This document shows, one piece after another, positions 6,377-55,500 of a DNA stretch of 64,000 nt. The translations under genes were made by a program, and so were the position numbers. The notes under the pieces are model-generated. The model searched no databases. It was not told the DNA's origin and saw nothing but the letters and a program-made list of their open reading frames with translations. Source of the DNA: Octopus vulgaris (lineage: Eukaryota); assembly GCA_951406725.2 (NCBI GenBank), contig OX597830.1, positions 41,912,001 to 41,976,000 on the forward strand. Reading direction: 5' to 3'. Position 1 is the first letter of the stretch. Each line of letters starts with the position of its first letter.

Positions 6377-7177
6377 CTGGAAGGGTAAGAGGTTGATAAT
6401 TAACAGAGGTTTTGAATAAACATCAACAGCTAGAAATATATGTAAAGTAAACACAGTTCAAACAATAAACATATTTAAAAGAAAACTACCATTTAAAGGA
6501 ATTTCAAGAGCATGTACAGAGCCATGTTTACTCTGAAAGTTATGGAACCAAGCAAAGAGATGAGCTGAGCAATTTTTAAAATTTATTTTTCAACAACATG
6601 GCTTCAAGAAGATTACAAGAACTTGAATCTTTTGGTACTAACCCACCTGAAGCTGTCATCTCTGGTTCCTGTTTTAAAGCGATCTGAATTTCATGTTAAT
6701 CTATGTTTCAAAACATTAGTGCAAGAACGATAAAGTTGTTTTCCTAAATTACTCATCATTTCAAAAATTAATTGAAATAAAGGAACAGGTGTGGTTCAGT
6801 GGTAAGGAGTTTGCTTCCAAAATACATGGTTTTAGGTTCAGTCCTATGTCAGGCAAGTGTCTTCAACTATAGCCACAGGCTGACCAAAGCCTTGTGAGTT
6901 GACTTGGTAGATGGAAACTGAAAGAAGCCCATTCTGTGAGTGTGTATGTATTTTACTGTCCCCTTGCCTTGATATCATATGATATAGCTGTAAGCGAGTG
7001 TTGTTGTCATACAAGTGGCACCCTTCATTTCCAATCTTCTGAGAAAATGTCTTGTTGTGGGGAAATATTACCTCATTTGGAAACAGGTAAAGGTTGAGAA
7101 CAGGAAAGGTATCTTGATGTAAAAAAAATCCACCTTAACAAATTCCATTTGACCCATGCAAACATGGAAAGGTGGAT

Positions 7178-7582
7178 GTGTCTTGAGGAAATTTTGAACC
7201 TGGGTTCTCATTCTTAAGGTATTTTTCGATATTATTAAGGTCACTGCTTGGAATCGAACTCGGAATCTTGGAGTTAGTAGCCTGTACTCTTAACCACTAA
7301 GCCATATGCCCACAGGTATATGGCGTAGTGGTTAAGAGTGCAGGCTACTAACCCCAAGATTCTGAGTTCAATTCCAAGCAGTGACCTGAATAATAATAAT
7401 AACAACAACATCGAAAAATACTTTAGGAATGAGAACCCAGGTTTGAAATATCCCCAAGACACCTGATGAAGGCTGGAGGGTATATCAGCCGAAACGTTGT
7501 GTTGACAACAAACAAGATGAGGACAAATATCCGTCAAATGTAAATAATGTAGATAATTCCTCATCTCTTAAATATAGAACAG
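7178..7582 (+). mobile_element. Fold-back element: inverted tRNA-like heads followed by a Penelope-type hammerhead tail (family A)
   Basis: 7178-7310 is the reverse complement of 7315-7462; A-box TGGCGTAGTGG and B-box-like GAGTTCAATTCC; related copies at 36229-36423 and about 54781-54872. Confidence 0.8.
7458..7503 (+). ncRNA. Minimal type I hammerhead ribozyme motif
   Basis: Stem I ACAC/GTGT, CTGATGA at 7463-7469, stem II GGCTG/CAGCC, GAAAC at 7491-7495 and GTT cleavage triplet with a palindromic AACGTT stem III. Confidence 0.75.
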
Positions 7583-8879
7583 TACCAAACACATTTCCAA
7601 AGAATATTGGAAATGAATGACATTTACAACAATTACATGATGGCAAGAAAAAGAGACACAAACATATGAAGGGGTTTCTTTCAGTTTCCACCTACCAAAT
7701 CCACTTACAAAGCTTTGATCAGTCAGGAACTATAGCCAAAGACACTTGCCTAAGACACTTGCAGGGGGACAAAACCCAAAACCATGTGGTTGGGAAGCCA
7801 ACTTGTTGGCCACACAGCCATGCTGGCTTCAATAATCATGTAGATAATTTCATAAATTAATCAACAACTTAAAAAAGAATAATAATTAAGCATTTAACGA
7901 GAGTTTATAATGTGTTAGATTCCAGCAGCGATAAAATGCATTTCCTTTGGATCCTATTTATTCAGTTAGTAGCAAAATCTTTGATGATATTGATCCCAAT
8001 CACCATCACCAACCACAGTGGTGCTTAAGTATTATTTTGTATTGAATAAAGAAAGAAAAAGATGTTTAAATTAGTAAAATTGTATTTAATTAGCCTATAT
8101 TGTAATTATGCAAAAATTTTGTTATGACACTTCCTTCTTCCGACATCCACTCACTCCAATCACTTTGTTTCTCTAATTGTACTTTGATCATCTTGCCTTG
8201 AACAAATGGAGACACCTAAGAGAAGAGAGGACTCCTCTTTAAGTCTTGCAGCGTACAAGGCAACCTCACTAGTGCTGGTGTGACAGTAAAACACATCACA
8301 CTGTAATGTGGTTGGTGAATAAGTGGAGACCAAAGAGGATTTTTTTTAGCCTTACTGAGGACACGGCAACCTGTCTAGTGCAGGTGACATGATGAAATGC
8401 ACCCAGAGCACTCCATAGAATGATTGTTGTCGAGAAGGGCAACAACCATGCTGCAAATGGAACATACAAGTGAAACATGGTCCTCCAATCCATTTAGGAG
8501 GGTAGTGTCATCTCCTACTGAGATACCTTGTCCAGCTCATGCCAATATGGAAAGCCAGCACAAACTGATGACAATGATGATGATGATCACTACTGATACA
8601 GAAATTATATTAAGAGCTATTGAAACTCAGACTAATTAGCAATTATGAAATATTTTGTTCCCCATTAAGCTGCTTAATTGCCTTTTTTTTATAGTATAAC
8701 AAGCAGCTAAATAGTATTTTTTAACAATAAGTAATATACAATTTATATGGATTTATCATACATAGAATCGGTACTGATTGCTAGAATTAGTATACAGAAC
8801 AAAGGTTTAAAAAAACCCCCAAAAAAACTTACCAAACATGAACAATATTTCAAAAGAGGAATATGATGCATCGACTTAC

Positions 8880-22222: not shown

Positions 22223-22638
22223 GCATGATATGTATATGCATTTGTGTTTGCCTGTGTGTATTTGTGAAAAGAAACTAAATTAAAAATGTCTAACTGAAAA
22301 AGGAAGTGAACACAGCAATGAAGAGGAGGTTGAAGAAAAAAAAAAAATTATTATGGTTGTTCTTTTATTGAATTTCAATAAAGAAATTATTGAATTCCAA
22401 TGCAGAAAAAAAAAATTTAAATATTTTTATAAAAGTATTGAAAATAAAATTCTTTTGAAGTGAGAAATCAATAAACTTAAGCCAAAATTCAGTAAAACAT
22501 GAATTGAAGCTCTGTAGCCCAGAATACAGATGTGTGTGTGTGTGTGTGTGTGTGAGGGTGAGATAGAGAAAGAAAGGAGGACCTGTAAATAAAAATTAAA
22601 CGATTTTTTAAACTGCAAAGCCATATAGATAAACTGAC

Positions 22639-22731
22639 CTTTTATTTGTTTAACCTTTTTGGCCATTTCTTTCTGCTTTTGTCGTTCTAATTTCCTTTGC
22701 ATTTTCAATTCTGCTGCTTGTTGTGCTGCTT
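22639..22731 (-). CDS. BAZ2B: BAZ2B-like exon, coiled-coil (EAAQQAAELKMQRKLERQKQKEMAKKVKQIK)
   Basis: Poly-T tract then gtgcag acceptor, G|gtcagt donor, 93 nt, phase 1/1. Confidence 0.88.
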
Positions 22732-23660
22732 CTGCACGAAGACAAAAAAAAAAAAAAAAAAAAAACAGTAATGATGCAATCACCAGTAAAATATAATACA
22801 TGATGTAAAATGTTGCACTTTGTTGCATATCTTTTAATTTTCAAGTGGTTTTTAGTTGTTAATCTTTCACTCACAGTTTGGATAGACTGGATCTGTCCAA
22901 GTACAGATGTACTGGAAAGACAGAGCCATTGATTCAGATACGATTGGCACAAGACAAGAATATACGTCATGTCACAAAGTCACTTGGCCAACATATTCTA
23001 GCCTTTGTCTTCTCTCAATGCTAATACTCTTGTAATGACCTCTACTCCTCAGAGTTGGCTTGTCTCATGCCAGATCTGCTCAGGTATTACTTTCAACATA
23101 CACATACATTTCCTCTTGCCACACATATTGTTCTTCCCCACCTGCACCCCTAGTCCAGCACTAATTCCTTATGCCTAATTCTCTTCAAAGCAATCTTCTG
23201 GAATTCCTTCCCAGTTCATGTTTTTGTCTGTAATTGCTGACTTGCATCTCTTCAAGAAAAATGTCAACTCTGCAGCAATCTTACTGGTCTCAGAATTTTG
23301 TGAAGCTATTGACCACAGTGCCTTCCTTCAGACCAAAGACCTAACTGATAATATAAGGTTGTCCCCAAAGTTCGTAGAAAGTCTTGGAAAATAATGGTCT
23401 TTATTTTGAGGAATAATTTTTGTTGTTTTTGTTAGTACTTGGCGAGTAAAAATTCAATTTTCGCAAGTGTTTACGAACTTTTGGGACAACCTAATAATAA
23501 TAATAATAATGATGATGATAATTCTTTCTACAACAGGCACAAGAACTATGTAACTGACCCCAGTTAAGCACTGGTGGTGGTGGGGGTGATTACATCAACC
23601 TCAGTGCTTGACTGGTATTTATATTATTGATCCTGGCTGTGGCAGAATTTGAGCTTAAAT

Positions 23661-23880: not shown

Positions 23881-24010
23881 TCTGAACTTAGAGACACAAC
23901 CATGTTGTTCAAACGAAGTGGAGGGCAGAAATTACTTCAAATTTTCTTTAGAGATTTCCTGTATCTTGTATTTCCGACAGAAAAAAAAAAAAAAAAAAAA
24001 AACAACTTAC

Positions 24011-24140
24011 CATACTTTTCTTCTTTTCGTTTTTTCTTCAGTGCTAAAGCTTCAGGGTCTAAATTTCTACGCCTTCTTCGATTGAATTGTACTTGAGTAA
24101 ATCGGTCAAAAACCTCATGCTCAGATAACAAAACATATCC
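24011..24140 (-). CDS. BAZ2B: BAZ2B-like exon (GYVLLSEHEVFDRFTQVQFNRRRRRNLDPEALALKKKRKEEKY), basic NLS-like clusters
   Basis: tgtttcag acceptor, G|gtaagt donor, 130 nt, phase 0/1. Confidence 0.9.
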
Positions 24141-24297
24141 CTGAAACAAGACGTGGTTGAACATTTTCAATAATAAATAATTTAAAACTGAGTTTTTTCT
24201 TGAATCTATCTTCAAAGAATATACATTCTACATGCATTCAATACCAATATACATCTTCAAAACACATGACATTCAATACAAATATAGTTCAATTAAA

Positions 24298-28984: not shown

Positions 28985-29771
28985 ATATACATTCATTTTT
29001 AATTTTTAAATCTCTTGTGTTTGTATTCATTGTTGGTGTTGATAGTCTTCTGCCTCCTTTGTACATTGTTGCCTTCATTGTATCACATCAACATCAGTGA
29101 CACTCCCTGTACCGCTGGCATAATCAGAGGTGCAAATGCCATGGAATTTAATGTTTTCAAGTTTTAAAATGCTGAAACTATAATGAGTCTGGTCTCCATG
29201 GCTGATGAGGGGATTTCCATGTTAATTTGTCCATTGTCCTCTTCTATTAATTGTTTCCATGTTCCATTTTTATTTTCCTTTATATACATACATGTGTACA
29301 TTTATGTGTTTTTCTGTACACTGTACTGCCTTATTGGGCCCTCCTTGAGTGTACAAACTATACACAGATATTGCTCTTACATACACAGGTACACAGAGAC
29401 AAATTGTTATACAGTATACTGCAAACTAAACAAACTCAATTTTTATATATTTTCATGTTAACACACAGTGAAATATATCAAAGAAATAATGAAATCAGTG
29501 TTACCCCATTAGCATTTAAATGGTCAGATCCGGCTCCTCACACCTACCCTATAATGTCCTTCTAAAAACAAACAGTCACATCATTGAAATCTTTAAGCTA
29601 AGAGATAATGCATGATTAATTCAAAAGATTGCGAATAAATAAGTATTATAGTAGACAGGGTAATCTGAATGCTAACTCATTAAAACAAAAACCCAAATGA
29701 TGCTGGTTTAATAACATTTAGATATGATGATGATGATAAAGTCCATATTCTTGAGTTGAAGCTATACTTAC

Positions 29772-29924
29772 TTCCAGAGCCATTCCCACTAATATCAGCA
29801 GTTCTTTTGTCTCCTGTAGTAAAGGATGTTGAACTATTTTCACTGTCACGGGTTGATTGATCATCATCTGATTCCATACTGTCTGAACAAGATCCACTGT
29901 CTGAACTATCGGAACTGTCACTTT
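29772..29924 (-). CDS. BAZ2B: BAZ2B-like exon, acidic Ser-rich (ESDSSDSSDSGSCSDSMESDDDQ...GNGSG)
   Basis: ttgcag acceptor after a long pyrimidine tract, A|gtaagt donor, 153 nt, phase 1/1. Confidence 0.88.
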
Positions 29925-30869
29925 CTGCAATTAGGGGAGAGAAGAGAGAAAAAAAAAAGAAAAAAAGAAAAAAGAAACCCAGTCATTTATTATGTACACA
30001 AATGTTGCAATATATTTTTCATTTAATATCATATACACACACATTAAAACTTTTGTGATGATATCATTAATGATATCCTTTTACTTGTTTCAGTTATTTA
30101 ACCGTGACCATGCTGGAGCACTTGCCTTTTAGCCAAACAAATCAACCCCAGCACTTATTTTTTGTAAGCCTAGTACTTATTCTATTGGGCTCTTTTGCCA
30201 TACCACTAAGTTAATATCAATATTGGTTGTCAAGCAATGGTAGTGGGGACAAACACAGACACATATACATACATACATACATTATATATATATATATATT
30301 TATATGCCAAAATGAATTTCTGTGTGCTAGTGTGTCACACTTTGACCCCCTCTCTCACTATTCAATGACACTTCTATTATTCCTCATGTTGGGATGAGAG
30401 TAATAGTAGGCATAGAGATGGTGAGGGTGGTAGTAGACTGATGGTCGTGATGGTAACGGGGTTGTGGAGGAGAAGACGGTGAAGTCAAAGGTATTGATGA
30501 TGGTGGCATCAGGAGTTTGAATGGTGTGTATGTATGGTTGTTGTGGTGGCAATGGTGATGGTTGAAAACAGTCAACAGAAAGAGAGAGAGAGAGAAAGAA
30601 AGAGGTTAGATAGAAAAGAAATTGTACTGACCCCTGAATGGGAAGACAAAAAATGCTGTTTATTATGCAACTTTGCAATAAGTTCCAAGTCGACAAATTA
30701 TATCATTGTTCTGATGAAAACTGTTCTTTGCTTGAAAACTATTGGTCAAGTTTAATAAAACATGTACTCAATGCGTGAAGTGTCATTGTTGGGCTCAAGG
30801 CCCAATGAAGAGCCCTTCACAGGAGCTAGCTTAAAAGCCGCCCGCTAAAGCAACTTTTAAGCTAGTATG

Positions 30870-30917
<48 letters not shown>

Positions 30918-31881
30918 TATATACAATGGGCTTCTTTCAGTTTCCACCTACCAAATCCATTCACAACACTTTGGTCAGCCCAAAGCTATAGTAGAAGACA
31001 CTCGTCCAAGGTGTTACACAGTGGGACTGAACCCAGAACCATGTGGTTGGGAAGCAAGCTTCTTACCACACAGCCATGCCTGTGCCTATAACGAATTTAG
31101 ATTAAAAAAAAAAAATCAAGTCAGAAACTTGGATGGATTTAATAATATAACTTTGTTATTAATAAGCTGGTGTTTGGAACACAACAAAAGTTTCTTGCAC
31201 AAAATCCTGATTACATTTTAATGCAAACACTTTAAAACAAGTTGCTGTGACAGCAGTTTAGGAGAGCAGGAACTCTGAATATATACACTGATATAAGATA
31301 AAGGATACTATTGTCCAGCTGTGAATGATCTCTCTCTCTCTCTAGTGTTAGAAGCATGATAAAATGTACCCAATTCATGTGGTAAAGTGATTACAACTGG
31401 ATGTTAAAAGAGAGAAAGATTGAATGGAAGAGACATGGATCCTCTTCTTATATTTGCCACAAGGGCAACAGATGAAGGGATTTTGCAAGAACAAATTACA
31501 TGAAAGAGACAAGCAGCCACAGAGGCAGTTTGTTTAGGAGATCAGTAATCCTGGCTAAAAACATCTACAAAGTAGCAAGCAGCCCCTTAGTCCTGACACA
31601 CACAATCTTTCTCTAGTGCTGGTGACAATAAAAATGCACCCAATTCACACAGTGAAGTATGTTGGTGATAGTATGGTCATCCAGTAAAACCCATGCAAAA
31701 AAAAAATTAAAAAAACAAAAAAACTTGGTAACTTCCTCTTACTGTACATCATGTACCAGATAATAAAGATGTGCAGTAACAGGATTTGAGATGAGGTGGG
31801 AGGCAAACACAGGTGTGTAAGGTAAAAGAAAGAAAAAAAAGAACCACCACAAAAATGATGATGGAATGATGTGATACATAC

Positions 31882-32026
31882 CTGAACCAGAATCAGAATC
31901 CTCATCAGAACTGCTACTATTGGAACTGTTTTTATCACTCATCAATTTGTATTTGGTGATGACAGAATCGTTTTGGCCGTTAGCTGAGTAACTACTAGAC
32001 AATAAACTACTTTTAGAGTCACCATT
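31882..32026 (-). CDS. BAZ2B: BAZ2B-like exon (NGDSKSSLLSSSYSANGQND...SSSSDEDSDSGS)
   Basis: ttttccag acceptor, G|gtatgt donor, 145 nt, phase 0/1. Confidence 0.85.
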
Positions 32027-32842
32027 CTGGAAAATAAAATGAAAGAAACTAAATAATATTTACATAAAAATATATTTGTTAAATACATCGTCATCATCGT
32101 TTAACATCCGTTTTCCATGCTGGCATGGGTTGGATGGTTTGACTGAGGTCTGGAGAGCCAGCGGCAGCATCAGGCTCCAATCTGATCTGGCAGTTTCTAC
32201 AGCTGGATGCTCTTCCTAACACCAGTCAGGTGGACCTGGCACCGATCATGTTTGGATGGTGCTTTTTATGTGCCACTGGCAAAGTCCTTTTCTTTTTTTC
32301 TTTGTAAAATATTGATGTCTCAATTTTAGTCATTGGACTGTAGCCATGCTGGGGTACCACCCTGATGGGCTTAGTTGAATAAGATGACCCAAGTAGTTAT
32401 ATTTTTAAGCCTGGTATTTATTTTATTGATCACTTTTGCTGAACCACAAAGTTATGGGGCCTGTAAACAAAACAACACCAATTATCAAGTGGTCGGGTGG
32501 ACAAATAGAAACACAAAGACACCCACCACATGACAGGCTTCCACACAATTTCCATCTATCAGATCCACTCACAAAGCATTGGTTGGCTCAGTGGTACAGT
32601 AGAAGACACTTGAAAGTTGACAGAGCTGTGCCTGGTTATACAGTGAACGCATACAATAAAAGAGTAAAATGGCATGGCTTTGTGGTTAAGAAGCTCCCTT
32701 TGCAACCATATCGATTCAGGTTCAATCCCACAGCATAGCACCTGGAACAAGTGTCTTCTACTAAAGACTTGGGCCAACTGAAGTCTTGTGAGTGAATTTA
32801 GTAAATGAAAACTGGTGGAAGCCTGTTATACACATACACACA

Positions 32843-33302: not shown

Positions 33303-34686
33303 CTGTAAAATAAATCATTAAAACAAAATAATTTTTTTCTTTAAACTCCTTTTAGGGTCGATAACAAAAGTACCAGACAAGTACAGGGGGTCAATGGGAT
33401 CTGCGGCTCTCAAAATTGCTAGCTTTATACTTAAATTAAAAACTTTTATTATTATAAAGAGCTTTGCATTAAACTGTGATTATTTATTTATCTAATAGGG
33501 TAGAATGTTGAGCTAATAGACCTTAAATTTAAAAGACCTGATTTGTCAGTCTGCCTCATGGTCCTGGCAGACAAACTGAAAGAGGCATTGCCTCAGAGGA
33601 TGGCAGATGGTGAGGGAGATGCACTAGAACAGCCACTTGTAGCAAGCTGGCAAAAATGTTAGTATGTCAGACAAAATGCTTAGCAGCATTTCGCCCATCT
33701 TTATACTCTGAGTTCAACTTTGCCTTTCATCCTATCAGGATCGATAAAATAAGTATCAATTAGCCTTGTGCCTATAATAGAAAGGATTATTATTATCATT
33801 AATTTTTGTCGAGGGTTGCACCACACATTGCTTGTCATTTTGTTCATAAAACTCAGCATCTTGAGACCACATTCCACAATTTCTTCCTCTGCTACAAGTA
33901 CCTTCAGCTGCTTTACAGGTAAAAAGCACTCAGTCCACTCTGCAGAGTGGTTGGTGTTAGGAAGGGCATCCAAATGTAAAAACCCTGCCAAAACGGAACA
34001 CAGCAGCCTGGGGTAGTCTTCTGCCTGGCCAACTCCTATCAACCATCCTTACTTATGCATGCATGGAAGACAGACGACGACGATGATGATTATGATGAGT
34101 AACCTATCCTGCTCAAAAGGTTCCTGAATAAGGTTTGTTTAAGGATGATGAACAAAACACCCATGTTTCCAAAGGTGAATTATCTAAACCACCAAAGAAT
34201 TCCTCTCAACACATGGCTATGATGCTCCCCCACTACTTCTGTTCAGAGATGCACATATCGTCAGCCACTAAGGGACATGCTCAACTGGTTAAGGTCAAAC
34301 AGTTGACAAGCAAATCTGTGGTATTGAGCAAAATGTTTGCTGTAGCCCATCTTTTAGACCAAGATCATTATCATTATTATTATTATTAGAGCAGAGAGCT
34401 GGCAGAATTGTTAGCATGCCAGGTGAAATGCTTAGTGGTATTTTGCCTTGACTTCAGGTTCTGAGTTCAAATTTTGCCAAGGTCAACTTTGCCTTTCATC
34501 CTTTCAGGGTCGATTAAATAAGTACCAGTTACGCACTGGGGTCAAAGTAATCAACTTAATCCCTTCCTCCAAATTTGAGGCCTTGTGCTTCCAGTAGAAA
34601 GGATTATTATGATTATGATTATCATCATCATTACCATTGTCATGACGATGGTTTTGATAGAGCAAAAAGTGAAAAGTAGTACAAAC

Positions 34687-34902
34687 CATTACAGCAGTTG
34701 ATAATTGTTTTGGAGGTCGACCTTTTGCTCGTGGTTGGTGTAATTCAGGTTTATAAACAGGCGTCTGTAGTGGAGTTAAGATGGACTTCATTTTCTGTCG
34801 AATTTGTTCAGCTAAGAGTTTTTTCTTGGTGTTATCTATTTGGTGATCAGTAGCAGAAACTTTCTTCAGGTTTTGTGATGAGACAGGAGACATATTTTTA
34901 TC
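34687..34902 (-). CDS. BAZ2B: BAZ2B-like exon (DKNMSPVSS...AKGRPPKQLSTAVM) with AT-hook-like GRP motif
   Basis: tatttcag acceptor, ATG|gtttgt donor, 216 nt, phase 0/0. Confidence 0.85.
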
Positions 34903-35699
34903 CTGAAATAGAATGGTAACACAAGGAAATTAGTTGTTAAAAAAAAAACAGAACATCATCACCACCACCATCATCATCATCATTATTATTAAGGTGGCAA
35001 GCTGACAGAGTTGTTAACATGACAGACAAAATGCTTAACAGCATTTCATGTCTTTACATTCTGAGTTCAAATTTCACCGAAGTCAACTTTGCCTTTTGTC
35101 CTTTCAGGATCAATAAAATGAGTAGCAGTAGAGTACTGGGGTCAATGGAATCAACTTACCTAACCCCTGAACTTGCTGGCCTTGTGCCAAAACTTGAAAC
35201 CATTATTATTATCATCATCATTATTTCTTTATTGCCCACAAGGGGCTAAATATAGAGGGGACAAACAAGGACAGACAAAGGGATTAAGTCGATTACACTG
35301 ACCCCAGTGCATAACTGGTATGTATTTAATCGACCCCGAAAGGATGAAAGGAAAAGTTGACCTTGGCAGAAAAGAAACAAACAAGGACAGACAAAGGGAT
35401 TAAGTTGATTACATCAACCCCAGTGCGTAACCGGTACTTATTTAATTGGCCCTGAAAGGATGAAAGGCAAGGTCGATCTCAGCGGAATTTGAATGTTATT
35501 ATTATTATTATTATTATTATCATTATTATTATTATTATTATTATTTCTGCACAAACATGTTGGTTACCGCACTTTAGCTTGGTTTTTTTTATACCGCATC
35601 ATTCTTGCCTTTATTCTTTCATCAGGATTCCACATGCCTTAAGGAATTCTGCCATTTTGTCTCTGTGTACAGAGCCAAAGGCCTTGGAGAAATCAACAA

Positions 35700-35912: not shown

Positions 35913-36228
35913 CCTCGATAAAAAAAAAAAAAATTACCATTCCAACTCTTTATATTCTTAGTTCAAATTCCATTGAGGTTGACTTGATGAAATAAATACC
36001 AGTTAAGCACTGTGATTGATGTAATTAATTAGCCCCCCCCCCCACCTCACAAAATTTCAAGCCTTGTGCCTATAGTAGAAAGGATTAATATTGTTGTTGT
36101 TGTATTACTAGCCTGCAGTGAGCCAGGAGATGCAGACCTGCAGAGGTGAAGTTAGTGGTAGTGGTGCTACATACATTGATATCCTTGATGACATCTAAAC
36201 AAAGGCTACTTAACTGATTGGCATAAGA

Positions 36229-36423
36229 CAGTTCTACATTTAAGAGATGAGAAATTATGTACATTATTTACATTTGACAGACATTTGACCATATCTTGTT
36301 TGTTGTTAACAAAACGTTTCGGCTGATATACCTTACAGTCTTCATCAGGTGGCTTGGGGAAATTTCAAAGCTGTGTTAACAGCAAACAAGATGAGGACAA
36401 ATGTCCATCAAATGTAAATAATG
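36229..36423 (-). mobile_element. Second family A copy: hammerhead on the minus strand, an inverted segment and a 12-bp flanking direct repeat
   Basis: Reverse complement reads cacCTGATGAagactg..cagccGAAAcgtt; 36373-36423 is an inverted copy of the tail; TGATTGGCATAA at 36215-36226 and 36422-36433. Confidence 0.75.
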
Positions 36424-36789: not shown

Positions 36790-37975
36790 ACAGGCCTCCC
36801 AAACTTTGGACCCCTTAACACCAAAGGCTCCTTAGGAAGGCACCTTCCCCTCTCCATTCCATTCATCCTACAAGTGCACACTTAGAGTAGGCCCATTTGC
36901 GCAGGCCATTCTTGTCACATTCACCAACCTTTCAATGAATGTACTGGATGGCAGTACCTCCCTCTCCAGCCTCATTTTCCTTTTCAGGTGGAACCTGAAA
37001 AAGTCAATGAGGACTTGGCCATAGAGGAAGGTACATGTCTTCAACCCTTTCAATCACGTTCATCACACAACCTCTTTTGCCATAGCCACCAGACAGAGAA
37101 AAATTGCCCTTCCTTCCTGGCCAAAGGAAGGAGGTGGGGTGATCTTCACAATGGGCTTGGATGATAGCTGGATCCGTCCTACATGTGACAATAACTGTTC
37201 AACAAAGCTCCACAAGTCAGCAATGTGTGGACTCTGTAAGAGAGCATGCAGAACAGTTTCATCACTTCGCGTGCATCTTGGACAAGCCCAACTGATTGCA
37301 CACCCATGCCTGTACAACTCCAAGGTAGAACTTCCACTGACTGCATTGCTTGACTGGCCAAGGGCTGTGAGCACTTGGAGACATCTGAGGCGCCAAACGT
37401 CCTACCTCGGTCTATGCCTCATCCATGACTGTAACTCCATCAAGGAGATGAGCTGCGGAAAAGTGCATTCAACAAACGGCGACCTCATCTGCTCACCGTT
37501 AAGGTATCACTGGAGATGCTGCAGCCTCAGTGTGTGTCTGTGTGTCCTCAGCCACAGCATGCCCAGTCCTCCGTTCAACAGGTACTGACAGCAAATGGAC
37601 CATTTGACAAATAATACCTGTTTCCTCCACAGGAAGTGAAGAAGCAAACACACCAGCCCGTTCAGCCATGAAGTGGGGCAAGGGACAACAGACAGGCAAT
37701 AGTATATGATGGATCTGTCGTATGCATTCGCCACCCCCATCCAACCTTTCAGAGACAGCTTCCTCTCGGCCCACTTCTGGGTGAGACTGGTCACCCAGTC
37801 TGTCACCTCACCCCAGTTCTTGTCCACTTGGAGATCTGGACTGAATTAGACCCTGAGCAACTTAACAGGTCCTTCCATCCAGTACCCCACCATGCAGTCG
37901 GTTGGCATAAGCCTTCCTCACAAGGTGCCTGGGCCTGCTTTTCCAGGTGCCTGGGCCTGCCTCTCCAGGTGCCTT
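36790..37975 (-). mobile_element. L1/Tx1-clade LINE 3' fragment, decayed
   Basis: Broken frames encode post-RT residues (WAERKLSLKG..VANAY.RSIIYY) and a zf-RVT-like CPRC..DETVLHALLQ..LW motif. Confidence 0.8.
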
Positions 37976-51853: not shown

Positions 51854-52079
51854 TAATGATATTGTGCACCACTGTTGATAATGCAATGTCTTGGATAACC
51901 TTAAAAAACAAAGATAGGATGGTATTCCTTTGACTATGGGGCTGTAAGATCAAGGTCGACCTGACAAAAGAATTAAACAACAGCAACAACGACAATAAAC
52001 AACTGAAAAATCAACATACACATACATATATATATATATATATATCAATCTAAAGAGATGAATGTATTAAGGCACTTAC

Positions 52080-52531
52080 TTGCAATAAGCCATGTTTGTG
52101 CCCCCCCGTATTTGTATGGGACTGTACAACAGCAGTAGACTTAGTAGATGTGGTGGTGGTAGTTGACGTTGAAGCCCGGTGAGACTGAGAAGAGGAAACC
52201 AATGAAGATGGAGATATAGACGACGATGATGAAGAGCCAAGTGGAATGTGTAATCCTAATGGCCCACCTGGCTCTCGATGCAGTGAAGTCACTATTGCAG
52301 CTGACTCTCGGTGTGCAGGATGCTGCCGTTGTTTTGAACGCTGTTTAGATTTAGAGTGTGCATTTGTGGAACTCGTGACTGGCATGTGACTACTGCGACT
52401 GCTTGAACTTAAACAAGTTCGTACACTACTTGTGGTGGTGGTAGCCACGGTCGTGCTGGATTTGGTCACTGTGTTCTTTCCTGCAGACAGGCCAAACACT
52501 GGACTGCTACCAAATGTGTGAAGGAGAGGTG
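52080..52531 (-). CDS. BAZ2B: BAZ2B-like exon, Ser/Thr-rich N-terminal region (APLLHTFGSSPVFGLSAGK...HKHGLLQ)
   Basis: ttttacag acceptor and CAA|gtaagt donor; 452 nt open; ends phase 0, matching the 34902 exon. Confidence 0.8.
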
Positions 52532-55500
52532 CTGTAAAATAAAATAATAATAATAATAATAATGATGATGATGATGATGATGATGATGATAATAATAATA
52601 ATAATAATAATAATGGTTTCAAATTTTGCCACAAGGGCAGCAATTTTGGAGGAGGGGATGAGTCAATTACATTGACCCCAGTGCTCAACTGGTACTTATT
52701 TTATCAACCCCAAAGGATGAAACGTAAAGTAGACCTCGGCGGAATTTGAACAACAACAACAACAACAACAATATAGGGAGCTTGCTTCCGAGCTACATGG
52801 TTTCGGGTTCAGTCCCACTGTGTAGCACTTTGGGCAGGTGTCTTCTACTATAGCCCCGAGCTAACCGAAGCTTTGTGATTGAATTCGGTAGGCGGAAGAT
52901 ACTGCTGTGTGTATATATGTGCGTGTAGGTGCTCAGTGCCTCTCCGAAAGAGAGAGAGGGGAATAATAATAACAATCCTTTCCACGATAGGCACAAGGCC
53001 TGAAATTTGGGGAAGGGGGGTTGTTGATTACATCAGCCCCAGTTCTTAACTGGTACTTAATTTATCGATCCCAAAAGGATGAAAGGTAAAGTCAACCTCG
53101 GCAGAATTTGAACTCAGAACGTAGCGATGGGCGAAATACCACTAAGCATTTTGTCCAGCATGCTAACAATTCTGCCAGCCCACCACCTTAATAATGATGA
53201 TGATGATGATGATGATAATAATAATAACAACAACAACAATAATAATAACAACAATCCTTTCTACTATAGGCACAAGGCTTAAAATTTGGAGAAGGGGGAT
53301 TATCGATTACATTGACTCCATTACTCAACTGGTACCATATTTTTTTATGTTCGTTTGTTATCCTCCAGTTGAATTTTTAGTTTTACAAAAACAGACTTTG
53401 CAGTATTCTTTAGTAATGTGATTGAATGACTGTGAACATCTCTAACCGAACAAAGCACAATGTTTCTCGCCCCATTGCTCACTTTGTCATTCATCCGTCA
53501 TTTTCATCTTAGCTCGTCACTACCATGTAGCAAGATTCATCATCATCAACAACATCCACTTTTCCATGCTTGTGTAGGCCAGACAGAATTTGTTGAAGCA
53601 GATTTTTTTTTTTTACAGCTGGACGCTCTTCTTGTTGCCAACCCTCACCTGTTTCCAAGCAAGGCAATATTTCCCCATGACCAGACATGGTTTTCACAGA
53701 AATGAACAACAATACTTGTATGCTAGTGATGCTCATTTAGAATCGTCACATTGTCAAGACAAGGATACACAGAGACACAGAAACACAGGCACGATGGGCT
53801 TCTTTCAGCTTCCATCTACCAAATCCACTCACAAGGTTTTGGTTGGCCTGGGTCCCGTGGTAGAAGACATGTGTCCAAGATGCTGCACAGTGGGACTGAA
53901 ACTGAGACCACATGATTGGGAAGCAAGTGTCTCGACCACACAGCCACGCCTGCACCTAAGACAGTATGGCATCAGCAATAAAGAGCAAGGATTGTGCAAA
54001 GGTCAAGGTTGCTCCTAAAATCTGCATCAGTTTATTCTGAGGTGACAGCATCTTCTAAATTGGGTTGCCTTCATTACAGAGAAAGGATAACCTAAATTTT
54101 GGGTGATGAAAATCTGTGAAACACAATTAAACCATTTAGATGTTGAAACTAACAACCAATAAAGACAAGTGCTATTTTTGAAAAAGCCAGCCTTTCCGAC
54201 ATGTTGTCTTTGACTGCTAGAAGCTTCCATGACCAAACCACGCAAAATGTCACATTTTTTCTGAGTTAGTTTCATAACTTTTATGGGACTAAATTAATTT
54301 ATATATCTATTAACATCATTAGCATTATCAATGATAAAGAGTTAATAAAAACATTAAGCATAGAGAAATTCCGATAACGGAATATTTGGAAACAGAAACA
54401 TCAAAGGTAAGGACATGAAAGATAACATGCATGGCTGGTTAGATGAAGAATAGCCATGATAATATTCTTTTATTGGTTTCATTCAATGGACTGTGGTCAT
54501 GCTGGAGCAGCACCATCAAGGGTTAGAGTTGATGTAATTGACATTAGTCATTATTTCTGTCAGTTAGTTATTTCATCCATCTCTATTTCATTGCAGACGC
54601 AGTATAGTTGAGTGGCTGAGATGCTTGCTTTAGTCACACAGTTCCAAGTTCAAACCCATTGCGTGGCATCCCAGGCAAGTGTCTTTTACAATAGATCTGG
54701 GTTAATTCAAGCCTTCTGGATAACACTAGGTTGAAGGAAACTGTGCTGAAGCCTTGTCACATACTGCCATGTAGTGTAGTGGCATATAGTGTAGTGGTTA
54801 AAAGCACGGGCTACTAACCCCAAGATTCAGAGTTAAATTCCAGGCAGTGACCTGAATAATAATAACACCGAATGATATTGGTTTATTTATATGCTTGTAA
54901 CTTAGTGGCTCATCAAAAGTGACCATTAAAATAAGTACCAGATTCAAATAAGTATAAGAGTTGGTTGTTGCCAGTGCTGCCTAACTGGCTCCCATACTGG
55001 TGGCACATAAAAAGCACCATTCAAGCGTGGTTGATGGCTAACTGGCCCTCGTGTTGGTGGCTCGTAAAAAGCACCCACTACACTCTCAGAGTGGTTGGCA
55101 CTAGGAAGGGCATCCAGCTGTAGAAACCTTTCAGATCAGATTGGAGTCTGGTACAGCCTTCTGGCTTGCCAGTCCTCAGTCAAACCGTCCAACCCATGCC
55201 AGCATGGAAAGCAGATGTTAAACGATGATGACGATGATGATGAAGAAAGATTTGCTTGACTTGACACTTCAAAGTAGTGCCCCAGCATGACCACAGTCCA
55301 ATGACTGAAGCAAGTAAAAAAAATATACAGATATCAAAGGTAATAATCATCTATATGAACTAGTAAAAGACTATCTGGTTGCTTAACTTGCTGGAAACAG
55401 CAACCAAATCTCCCTCAAATCATACAATACTTTCTTAATGTAACATTCAGATTATTTCTGTCAAATGTAATGCTTGTGTGTTCATATTGGTTTCAATTAA

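What the first reader, a model, noticed from the sequence alone, without database searches (positions are those of the whole stretch)
7178..7582. tRNA-promoter plus minimal hammerhead ribozyme in a fold-back element: candidate Penelope-mobilised, self-cleaving SINE/retrozyme
Seen: two tRNA-like heads face away from each other around a small loop at about 7311-7314, forming a hairpin with arms of about 135-150 bp. The right unit continues into an intact minimal type I hammerhead (ACAC-CTGATGA-aGGCTG...CAGCC-GAAAC-GTT-GTGT) and a tail of about 80 nt. The inverted left arm stops at GACAC, immediately before the catalytic core. Established: minimal hammerheads with a palindromic stem III, thought to work as dimers, mark Penelope-like element pLTRs, which often occur inverted. 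Schistosoma SM-alpha is a precedent for a tRNA-derived repeat with a hammerhead. Inference: a Pol III-driven, ribozyme-processed non-autonomous element that borrows Penelope RT/GIY-YIG machinery. I do not know of a description in cephalopods.
Basis: partly seen in the sequence, partly recalled or inferred. Interest (0 to 1): 0.85.

Follow-up and report, generated by a model that had tools for sequence, protein, structure and literature searches.

The report
Penelope-borrowing SINE carrying a hammerhead
This is one copy of a very abundant short octopus jumping element that joins a tRNA-type promoter to the hammerhead-bearing start of a Penelope retrotransposon, so it most likely spreads by borrowing Penelope enzymes rather than the LINE enzymes that such elements are defined as using.

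Summary
In detail: a 133/148-nt fold-back (90% identical arms), A/B boxes and an intact minimal type I hammerhead (cut predicted after 7498). The right unit (about 7314-7584) belongs to a high-copy family: 35,578 and 40,143 contigs in two DNA runs of two organisms, with head and hammerhead linked in other copies.

Penelope (PLE) mobilisation is well supported. Copies are 5'-truncated, have no poly(A), and end at two 3' clusters about 30 nt apart (7551/7557 and 7580/7584). Inverted 5' partners recur, and one copy has a 12-bp TSD. In a sister family the same reading frame runs on into a Penelope-type ORF N-terminus.

'Ribozyme-processed' is not supported. No ends cluster at the cut site, and a published PLE inserts without cleavage. 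The left arm's stop at GACAC is best explained by a deletion.

Still open: the actual partner element, Pol III transcription, cleavage, and whether this is one of the 1994 octopus SINEs. In the sister family the tRNA-like segment is not always the 5' end.

Verdict: probably a PLE-mobilised SINE, a pairing not found in ten literature searches.

The parts
7178..7310 (-). Inverted partial copy (head, linker, body up to the 5' strand of stem I); its 3' part is missing, probably by deletion
   Evidence: 120 of 133 identical to right arm; 2-nt GT overlap with the cut end of the left flanking SINE
7307..7318 (.). Centre of the fold-back; decayed form of a short palindrome (GCCCATGGGC) found at the 5' end of many copies
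   Evidence: loose-end consensus before 7318 in 207 (X2) and 183 (X14) contigs, agreement 0.49 and 0.44
7314..7392 (+). tRNA-type head with A box (7321-7331) and B box (7366-7374)
   Evidence: 76-85% of depth has G at 7370, giving a canonical B box; similar to a SINE head in L029 (score 38 vs shuffle max 26 of 1000) that hits Rfam tRNA weakly (20.6 bits, E 0.35)
7393..7410 (+). AAT/AAC microsatellite linker of variable length
7426..7584 (+). PLE-derived part: remnant of the ORF start (ATG at 7429, frame open 7447-7584 here and in the 36 kb copy), holding the hammerhead and the two 3' end sites
   Evidence: (11-nt match to sister family at 7426-7436)
7458..7503 (+). Minimal type I hammerhead; predicted cut after 7498; palindromic ACGU in place of stem III
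   Evidence: variation across copies at N7 and CpG sites
7551..7557 (+). Proximal cluster of 3' ends (inferred first reverse-transcription start)
   Evidence: 296+348 contigs in X2, 217+262 in X14; 9 of 19 family-A translations end here
7558..7584 (+). Optional ~30-nt 'tail'; distal cluster of 3' ends at 7580 and 7584 (inferred second start)
   Evidence: 253+252 contigs in X2, 185+220 in X14; 7 of 19 translations
36228..36421 (-). Second copy: 5'-truncated unit (= 7434-7583, with tail) preceded by an inverted piece (= 7498-7549, no tail), 12-bp TSD at 36215 and 36422; hammerhead stems decayed
54781..54865 (+). Third copy: head and linker only (88%), no 3' part, no clear TSD
6778..7177 (+). Flank: copy of another, far more abundant tRNA-type SINE, lacking its last ~15 nt
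7585..7823 (-). Flank: opposite-strand copy of the same abundant SINE, lacking its last ~110 nt

Best explanation
The unit is a non-autonomous retroposon of Octopus: a tRNA-type internal promoter fused to the pLTR/ORF-start region of a Penelope/Poseidon-type element. Inferred cycle: Pol III starts at the head and reads across the hammerhead. The RT/GIY-YIG protein of an autonomous PLE binds the RNA, nicks AT-rich DNA and starts reverse transcription internally at one of two sites about 30 nt apart. This gives copies ending at 7551-7557 or 7580-7584, without poly(A), often 5'-truncated. Priming on both target strands, or snap-back at the 5' palindrome, gives head-to-head fold-backs. The hammerhead comes with the PLE signal; it cannot form stem III alone, and cutting is not what defines the inserted RNA. 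The focal locus is such a fold-back that later lost the outer part of its left arm with flanking DNA. Shown: family, linkage, end clusters, inverted partners, TSD, homology chain to a PLE ORF start. Inferred: Pol III, identity of the partner, order of events.
For: High copy number in two organisms, with hammerhead depth 3.6 and 2.5 times head depth. 8 of 32 listed contigs bridge 7410 with at least 31 letters each side, and 4 of 32 run from the B box through the core, each with 13-20 differences. Two 3' clusters in both DNA runs, in family-A translations (16 of 19) and at homologous points in sister family B (50 of 60). This matches the PLE 'tail' between two internal RT starts. Cut-to-distal-end distance is 82-86 nt here, 83 nt in PLE loci L003/L010 and 85-92 nt in the anole PLE. 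The 36 kb copy has the described PLE layout. 8 of 15 shown joints change strand. Window frame vs P0202 scores 102 against shuffle max 47. P0202 and P0236 continue past the family's end into a domain matching the N-terminal ORF of the tandem GIY-YIG element L025 (E 2e-10, 7e-10). The same hammerhead type lies just downstream of, or between, PLE-like ORF hits in 8 of 44 AT-rich loci (3 independent groups).
Against: No autonomous partner was found in the window or in G001, and no genome was available. The ORF continuation is in sister family B (about 45% amino-acid identity to the window), of unnamed host, in only 2 of 80 downstream parts. In family B the shared sequence runs at least 80-130 nt upstream of the A/B boxes in 5 or more copies, so there the head is not always the 5' end. 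1253 and 1071 contigs that run over the ends of the laid stretch were not shown. Two of the window's five pieces (left arm, 54.8 kb copy) lack the 3' end. Heads pass no tRNA scanner. The GIY-YIG and RT Pfam hits are below gathering thresholds. Contig depth is not a copy number.
Confidence: 0.68

Rival explanations
1. The unit is the pLTR of an autonomous Penelope-like element that itself carries a tRNA-like segment; the copies are ordinary 5'-truncated PLE ends, made from Pol II transcripts, and not a SINE.
For: Sister family B extends upstream of its A/B boxes, forms head-to-tail tandems (30 of 192 translations have two or more units) and continues into a PLE ORF. PLEs make up 6.83% of the O. 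vulgaris assembly.
Against: In the window's family the sequence upstream of 7318 shares only a 10-14-nt palindrome and then differs between runs X2 and X14. Nothing is shared beyond 7584 (agreement 0.40). Three window pieces all start at the head. The ORF remnant is about 18 codons shorter than in family B.
Confidence: 0.2
2. Retrozyme-type cycle: the hammerhead cuts tandem transcripts, the monomer circularises and is reverse-transcribed by PLE enzymes.
For: The core is intact and, in the rows shown, the only non-CpG core position above 3% in DNA is N7 (U>A 18% and 12%, U>C 10% in one organism). The inverted piece at 36 kb begins at the cut site, and one L058 unit stops at it. Sister tandems exist.
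Against: No loose-end cluster at 7498/7499 and no head-to-tail joint among the 15 joints shown (146 joints and 1050 loose ends not shown). The strand-change joints re-enter at 7353-7537 without clustering. Window copies are single and dispersed. Cutting a monomer would separate the promoter from the RT start sites. Anole PLE hammerhead mutants insert normally; 8 of 9 Xenopus retrozyme dimers did not cleave.
Confidence: 0.07
3. A LINE-mobilised SINE that once captured a pLTR fragment, or a one-off SINE-PLE junction at this locus.
For: SINEs are defined as LINE-dependent. A 12-bp TSD and 5' truncation fit LINE action too.
Against: There is no poly(A) or simple-repeat tail and there are two fixed 3' clusters. 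The inverted piece duplicates sequence inside the forward piece, which twin priming on one RNA does not give (from general knowledge). The junction recurs in many other copies.
Confidence: 0.05

Closest known systems
Endonuclease-positive Penelope-like elements, Penelope/Poseidon clade (PAc of Anolis; PMC11167929, PMC8557442, PMC4209133)
   Same: Minimal type I hammerhead with extra base after A9 and palindromic 15.2-16.2; hammerhead overlapping the ORF start; two 3' ends about 30 nt apart; distal end about 85 nt past the cut; inverted 5'-truncated partner; 5' truncation.
   Different: No RT/GIY-YIG ORF; about 270 nt; begins with an A/B-box head; no tandem copies seen for this family.
tRNA-derived SINEs (SINEBase definition, PMC3531059), including the octopus OK, OR1 and OR2 families of Ohshima and Okada 1994 (seen only as a reference; family names other than OR2 recalled)
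   Same: Short, interspersed, very abundant, head-body layout, A and B boxes 45 nt apart.
   Different: No simple-repeat tail; the 3' half comes from the START region of a PLE ORF rather than the 3' end of a LINE; carries a hammerhead. Identity with OK or OR1 could not be tested.
Schistosoma SM-alpha / Sj-alpha (review passages, PMC6765202; PMC8490949)
   Same: Pol III-type promoter plus type I hammerhead in a short repeat.
   Different: SM-alpha occurs in tandems, cleaves in vitro and is released by cleavage, leaving single copies promoter-less. Here copies keep head, hammerhead and tail in order, and ends do not map to the cut.
Animal non-LTR retrozymes and other non-autonomous PLE derivatives (PMC7229834; bioRxiv 10.64898/2026.07.22.740005; MRC1 in PMC8557442)
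   Same: Non-coding, pLTR-derived, type I hammerhead, proposed to use PLE enzymes.
   Different: Defined by tandem units and circular RNA; no tRNA-type head is mentioned in the text read. This family is dispersed, monomeric or fold-back.

Membership tests
SINE (SINEBase) | Short (<1 kb), interspersed, not tandem | tested here: met
   About 270 nt; three separate loci in 64 kb; diverse flanks
SINE (SINEBase) | At least 100 copies | tested here: met
   35,578 and 40,143 contigs laid; over 1000 contigs with distinct 3' flanks in X2; not an exact count
SINE (SINEBase) | At least 60% identity to a tRNA over 60 nt | tested here: inconclusive
   A/B boxes present; no ARAGORN or Rfam call; only indirect similarity through the L029 head; no eukaryotic tRNA set at hand
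SINE (SINEBase) | Transcribed by Pol III | not testable with these tools
   Only contigs of runs guessed to be RNA; no starts or strand
SINE (SINEBase) | Simple-repeat 3' tail and dependence on a partner LINE | tested here: not met
   No shared tail after 7551-7584; 3' half homologous to a PLE ORF start
Penelope-like element (autonomous) | ORF with RT and GIY-YIG | tested here: not met
   No hit of 68 PLE-like proteins in the window; only a 52-codon remnant
PLE-mobilised insertion | Minimal hammerhead in the terminal region | tested here: met
   against the description
PLE-mobilised insertion | Optional 30-40-nt tail from two RT start sites | tested here: met
   3' clusters 23-33 nt apart
PLE-mobilised insertion | Inverted 5'-truncated partner at the 5' end | tested here: met
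   36 kb copy; 8 of 15 shown joints change strand; the focal left arm is atypical in lacking its 3' end
PLE-mobilised insertion | Autonomous partner sharing the terminal region in the same genome | tested here: inconclusive
   Found only for sister family B (P0202, P0236); no genome for the window
Non-LTR retrozyme | Head-to-tail tandem units, each with a hammerhead | tested here: not met
   None in the window or among the 15 main joints; present in sister families
Non-LTR retrozyme | Self-cleavage and circular RNA | not testable with these tools
   No raw reads were offered
Octopus OK / OR1 / OR2 SINEs | Sequence identity to the published consensus | not testable with these tools
   1994 paper seen only as a reference; SINEBase supplement not held

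The most novel reading that the evidence does not exclude
A SINE class that parasitises Penelope-like elements. Because PLE reverse transcription starts internally near the ORF start, a tRNA-type promoter placed upstream of a pLTR-ORF junction is enough to found a family. Rare master loci would keep extra ORF sequence past 7584, and daughters would lack it. The hammerhead is kept under selection as a dimerisation and cleavage switch: its ACGU palindrome pairs two RNAs inside a dimeric PLE protein, which would explain the pervasive head-to-head insertions.
Probability: 0.25. Interest if true: 0.85.

Novelty: new variant of a known kind. Interest (0 to 1): 0.62.

Why it matters
SINEs are defined as dependants of LINEs. 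A family with tens of thousands of copies or more that uses PLE enzymes would add a new SINE-partner pairing. It would also show that a SINE can take its recognition signal from the 5' start of a partner ORF. It offers a 270-nt natural substrate for two open questions: what the PLE protein must recognise, and what the PLE hammerhead is for, given that cleavage was dispensable in vitro. It would also mean that part of octopus 'Penelope' or 'unclassified SINE' annotation is one hybrid class. If the pLTR rival is right, it is ordinary PLE debris with an odd tRNA-like insert.

Tried and rejected
No whole genome was held, so the genome-wide BLAST was replaced by one laying of public contigs. Rfam found no hammerhead or tRNA in the element or in the L058 head. 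No RNA holder was listed on record; X10 and X16 are only guessed to be RNA. Family-specific motif scans found nothing in viral or metagenome contigs; alignment and protein scans of viral contigs gave no locus. The first pair count used a mis-registered structure and is discarded (corrected, where the covariation is weak: 1 compensatory pair, 10 of 500 shuffles). ARAGORN's tRNA-Arg call for the L058 head is rejected: the same setting calls tRNAs in nearly all loci. L029 looked like a second tRNA-headed hammerhead element but is better read as an unrelated SINE sitting inside a fold-back; it is not counted. The idea that inverted arms start at the cut site (one case at 36 kb) is not borne out by the joints. 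The idea that the left arm's end at GACAC is mechanistic is rejected: it is 36 nt upstream of the cut and both flanks are truncated. No PLE ORF and no match to the flanking SINE were found in G001, which is not evidence of absence. No solved structure matched the L010 ORF. My early note that family B has no tRNA-like part was wrong and was corrected. The host gene was not identified.

Full report
Observation. The structure is as described. Two arms face outward from a 4-nt loop at 7311-7314. They align at 120 of 133 positions with one 15-nt indel in an AAT/AAC linker. Both heads carry A- and B-box motifs 45 nt apart. The right arm continues into a type I minimal hammerhead: 5-bp stem I, core at 7463-7469, an extra A, 6-bp stem II, GAAA, a palindromic ACGU instead of stem III, and U17 at 7498. 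A strict descriptor hits only this site, and 2 of 200 shuffles gave any hit. Rfam and ARAGORN report nothing relevant. The anatomy fits the min-HHR of metazoan PLEs: short helix I, long helix II, a base between 9 and 10.1, G10.1-C11.1, palindromic 15.2-16.2 (PMC4209133, main text read).

It is a family. The window holds two more loci. At 36228-36421 (minus strand) a 5'-truncated unit is preceded by an inverted piece of its own 3' region and flanked by a 12-bp TSD. At 54781-54865 there is a head-only piece. Laying four runs on 7311-7592 gave 35,578 (X2, organism A) and 40,143 (X14, organism E) contigs, and 1,245 and 3,166 in two runs guessed to be RNA (4 of 24 listed runs were laid, all contigs). 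Close translated matches are labelled Octopus bimaculoides, O. sinensis and O. vulgaris, so I infer an octopus. Head and hammerhead are linked elsewhere: 8 of 32 listed records bridge 7410 with 31 or more letters on each side, and 4 of 32 run from the B box through the core with 13-20 differences each. No listed record spans the whole unit.

Ends. Depth over the hammerhead is 3.6 and 2.5 times that over the head, as 5' truncation predicts; contig depth is not a copy number. Loose ends cluster at 7551, 7557, 7580 and 7584 in both DNA runs, followed by unrelated AT-rich sequence and no poly(A). Independently, 9 of 19 family-A translations end at the first point and 7 of 19 at the second; 10 and 40 of 60 sister-family translations end at the homologous points. 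At the 5' side, 207 and 183 contigs share only a short palindrome before 7318. 8 of the 15 joints shown change strand (146 not shown). In the anole element PAc, reverse transcription starts internally at two sites that delimit an optional 30-40-nt tail, both target strands are cut and extended, and the hammerhead overlaps the ORF start (PMC11167929, main text read). PLE insertions often have an inverted truncated copy at the 5' end and the tail at one end only (PMC8557442, passages). The 36 kb copy has exactly that layout. The distal end lies 82-86 nt past the cut, against 83 nt in PLE loci L003/L010 and 85-92 nt in PAc.

Link to a PLE ORF. One frame is open across 7447-7584 and in the 36 kb copy. 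It finds 80 short predicted ORFs; none of the 79 scanned has an RT or GIY-YIG hit. Most come from a sister family B. A profile search (495 hits, 120 listed) added P0202 and P0236, where this frame runs past the family's 3' end into a shared domain (2 of 80 downstream parts). That domain matches the N-terminal ORF of locus L025 (32% over 74 residues, E 2e-10 and 7e-10). L025 is a tandem element with the same hammerhead type between a GIY-YIG-ending ORF and that N-terminus. Its relatives give weak RT hits (2 of 6 tested). By my hand translation of the PAc template, the PAc ORF has the same run of motifs after its RT start site. The window frame aligns to P0202 with score 102 against a shuffle maximum of 47. 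So 7426-7584 derives from the pLTR/ORF-start of a Penelope/Poseidon-type element. The partner itself was not found.

Motif context. A degenerate motif scan gave 54 metagenome and 5 genome-bin loci. 33 of 44 AT-rich loci have a valid cut-site dinucleotide against 0 of 15 GC-rich ones. The variable stem II pair is T-A in 22, C-G in 15, T-G in 5 and C-A in 2 (the pattern allowed only these four). 11 of 44 have an inverted partial copy nearby. The 44 loci fall into 13 groups, so these counts are not independent. Fold-backs are therefore an ordinary PLE trait, as earlier notes e1-7812055 and e1-9927368 also say (unchecked).

The head. It is SINE-like but degenerate. It passes no scanner, yet resembles a SINE head in L029 beyond all 1000 shuffles; that head scores 20.6 bits on Rfam tRNA. 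The family-wide B box is canonical (7370G in 76-85% of depth). No run of four T follows within 7315-7900. Against a simple SINE reading: in family B and L058 the shared sequence goes on 80-130 nt upstream of the boxes in at least five copies, while about six others stop at the head. Family B could be an autonomous PLE with a tRNA-like segment in its pLTR. For the window's family no such upstream sequence was seen, but 1,253 and 1,071 contigs running over the ends were not displayed.

The ribozyme. In the rows shown, core variation in DNA is limited to N7 (U>A 18% and 12%; U>C 10% in organism E only) and CpG sites (7-14%); 37 rows were hidden. Across six copies from two families, ten core positions are invariant; N7 varies, and 15.2 (a CpG site) differs in one copy. 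Stem II has one compensatory pair, weak on its own. This suggests selection in source copies. It does not show that cutting shapes the insert: no end cluster maps to 7498/7499, and cutting a monomer would part the promoter from the RT starts. PAc hammerhead mutants insert normally, and PAc cleaves only with protein. Two single cases touch the cut site (36 kb inverted piece; one L058 unit) and remain anecdotes. A trans double-hammerhead (-22.3 kcal/mol) is no more stable than two monomers (-12.0 each) in a simple energy model.

The focal locus. There is no TSD. The left flanking SINE lacks its terminal repeat and meets the left arm through a 2-nt overlap; the right flanking copy lacks about 110 nt. 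One deletion accounts for all three losses and for the arm ending at GACAC, 36 nt upstream of the cut. Snap-back from the 5' palindrome is the alternative.

Comparison and novelty. It works like a PLE terminal unit and is built like a SINE. It fails two SINE features (simple-repeat tail, LINE partner; PMC3531059 passages), fails the autonomous PLE test, and fails the tandem test for retrozymes (PMC7229834 passages; bioRxiv 10.64898/2026.07.22.740005 main text). SM-alpha differs in being tandem and released by cleavage (PMC6765202 and PMC8490949 passages). Non-autonomous PLEs are known (PMC6685494 passages), with no tRNA-type head mentioned in what I read. Ten searches listed no paper on a PLE-mobilised SINE or an octopus hammerhead SINE; one search listed only 30 of 4,975 papers, and the library lacks most subscription journals and Repbase. 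The O. vulgaris annotation (PMC13282606, main text and supplement search) has no hammerhead or ribozyme hit in its supplement. Giant squid has 235 Rfam hammerhead-1 hits (PMC6962438 passage). Also seen as passages: PMC8967140, PMC4758252, PMC5804259, PMC10886601. The sequence may well be one of the three octopus SINEs of 1994 or sit in repeat libraries; the SINEBase supplement and that paper were not available, nor were the preprint's supplements.

Verdict. Real, high-copy, PLE-mobilised with good support; SINE status probable (0.68); self-cleavage as the processing step unsupported. New variant of a known kind; interest 0.62.

Noticed in passing
window:7401-7528 (runs X10, X16): Runs guessed to be RNA show A>G and T>C changes at sites nearly invariant in DNA (7470: 0.1% and 0.1% vs 3.9% and 9.3%; 7528: 0.4% and 0.7% vs 5.7% and 25.1%). 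This suggests A-to-I editing of copies transcribed in both directions; individuals are not matched.
   Followed up: partly
window:6778-7830: The fold-back is nested inside two opposed copies of another SINE, so the minus strand can fold into a roughly 1-kb rod (383 pairs predicted), a likely editing substrate in the host pre-mRNA.
   Followed up: partly
window:8880-9017 (-) and other short minus-strand frames (22427-22840, 23937-24227, 29680-29982, 31739-32059, 34504-34929, 52050-52700): Exon-like frames of a host gene on the minus strand with a GT donor at 8879. The focal hammerhead is antisense to it; the decayed 36 kb one is sense. The peptide recalls BAZ2B (from memory, not tested).
   Followed up: no
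window:7438-7491: In the full unit an upstream segment is predicted to pair with the stem II region, putting the hammerhead fold 5-6 kcal/mol above the minimum. It uses a letter private to this copy (7450A; 96-99.7% T elsewhere), so it may not be general.
   Followed up: partly
L058:3758-4202 and L058:5905-6337: An AT-rich, animal-like contig binned in a bacterial genome holds a sister element (A/B boxes, longer body, hammerhead, 79% identity over 66 nt) and a three-unit inverted cluster; the genome bin appears to hold much host DNA.
   Followed up: yes
P0003, P0257 (and P0267-P0269): Predicted Octopus bimaculoides, O. sinensis and O. vulgaris proteins begin with the translated element, so copies are exonised or mis-annotated as first exons.
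   Followed up: no
L029:259-810: A tRNA-headed SINE sits inside the loop of a hammerhead fold-back in another organism; its head has the same anticodon-loop letters as the window's head.
   Followed up: partly
window:54771-54796: The head-only copy is preceded by a short direct duplication of its A box.
   Followed up: no
window:58610-59189 and 36886-37845: Frames that look like a mariner-type transposase fragment and a LINE-like fragment (labels from memory, not scanned).
   Followed up: no
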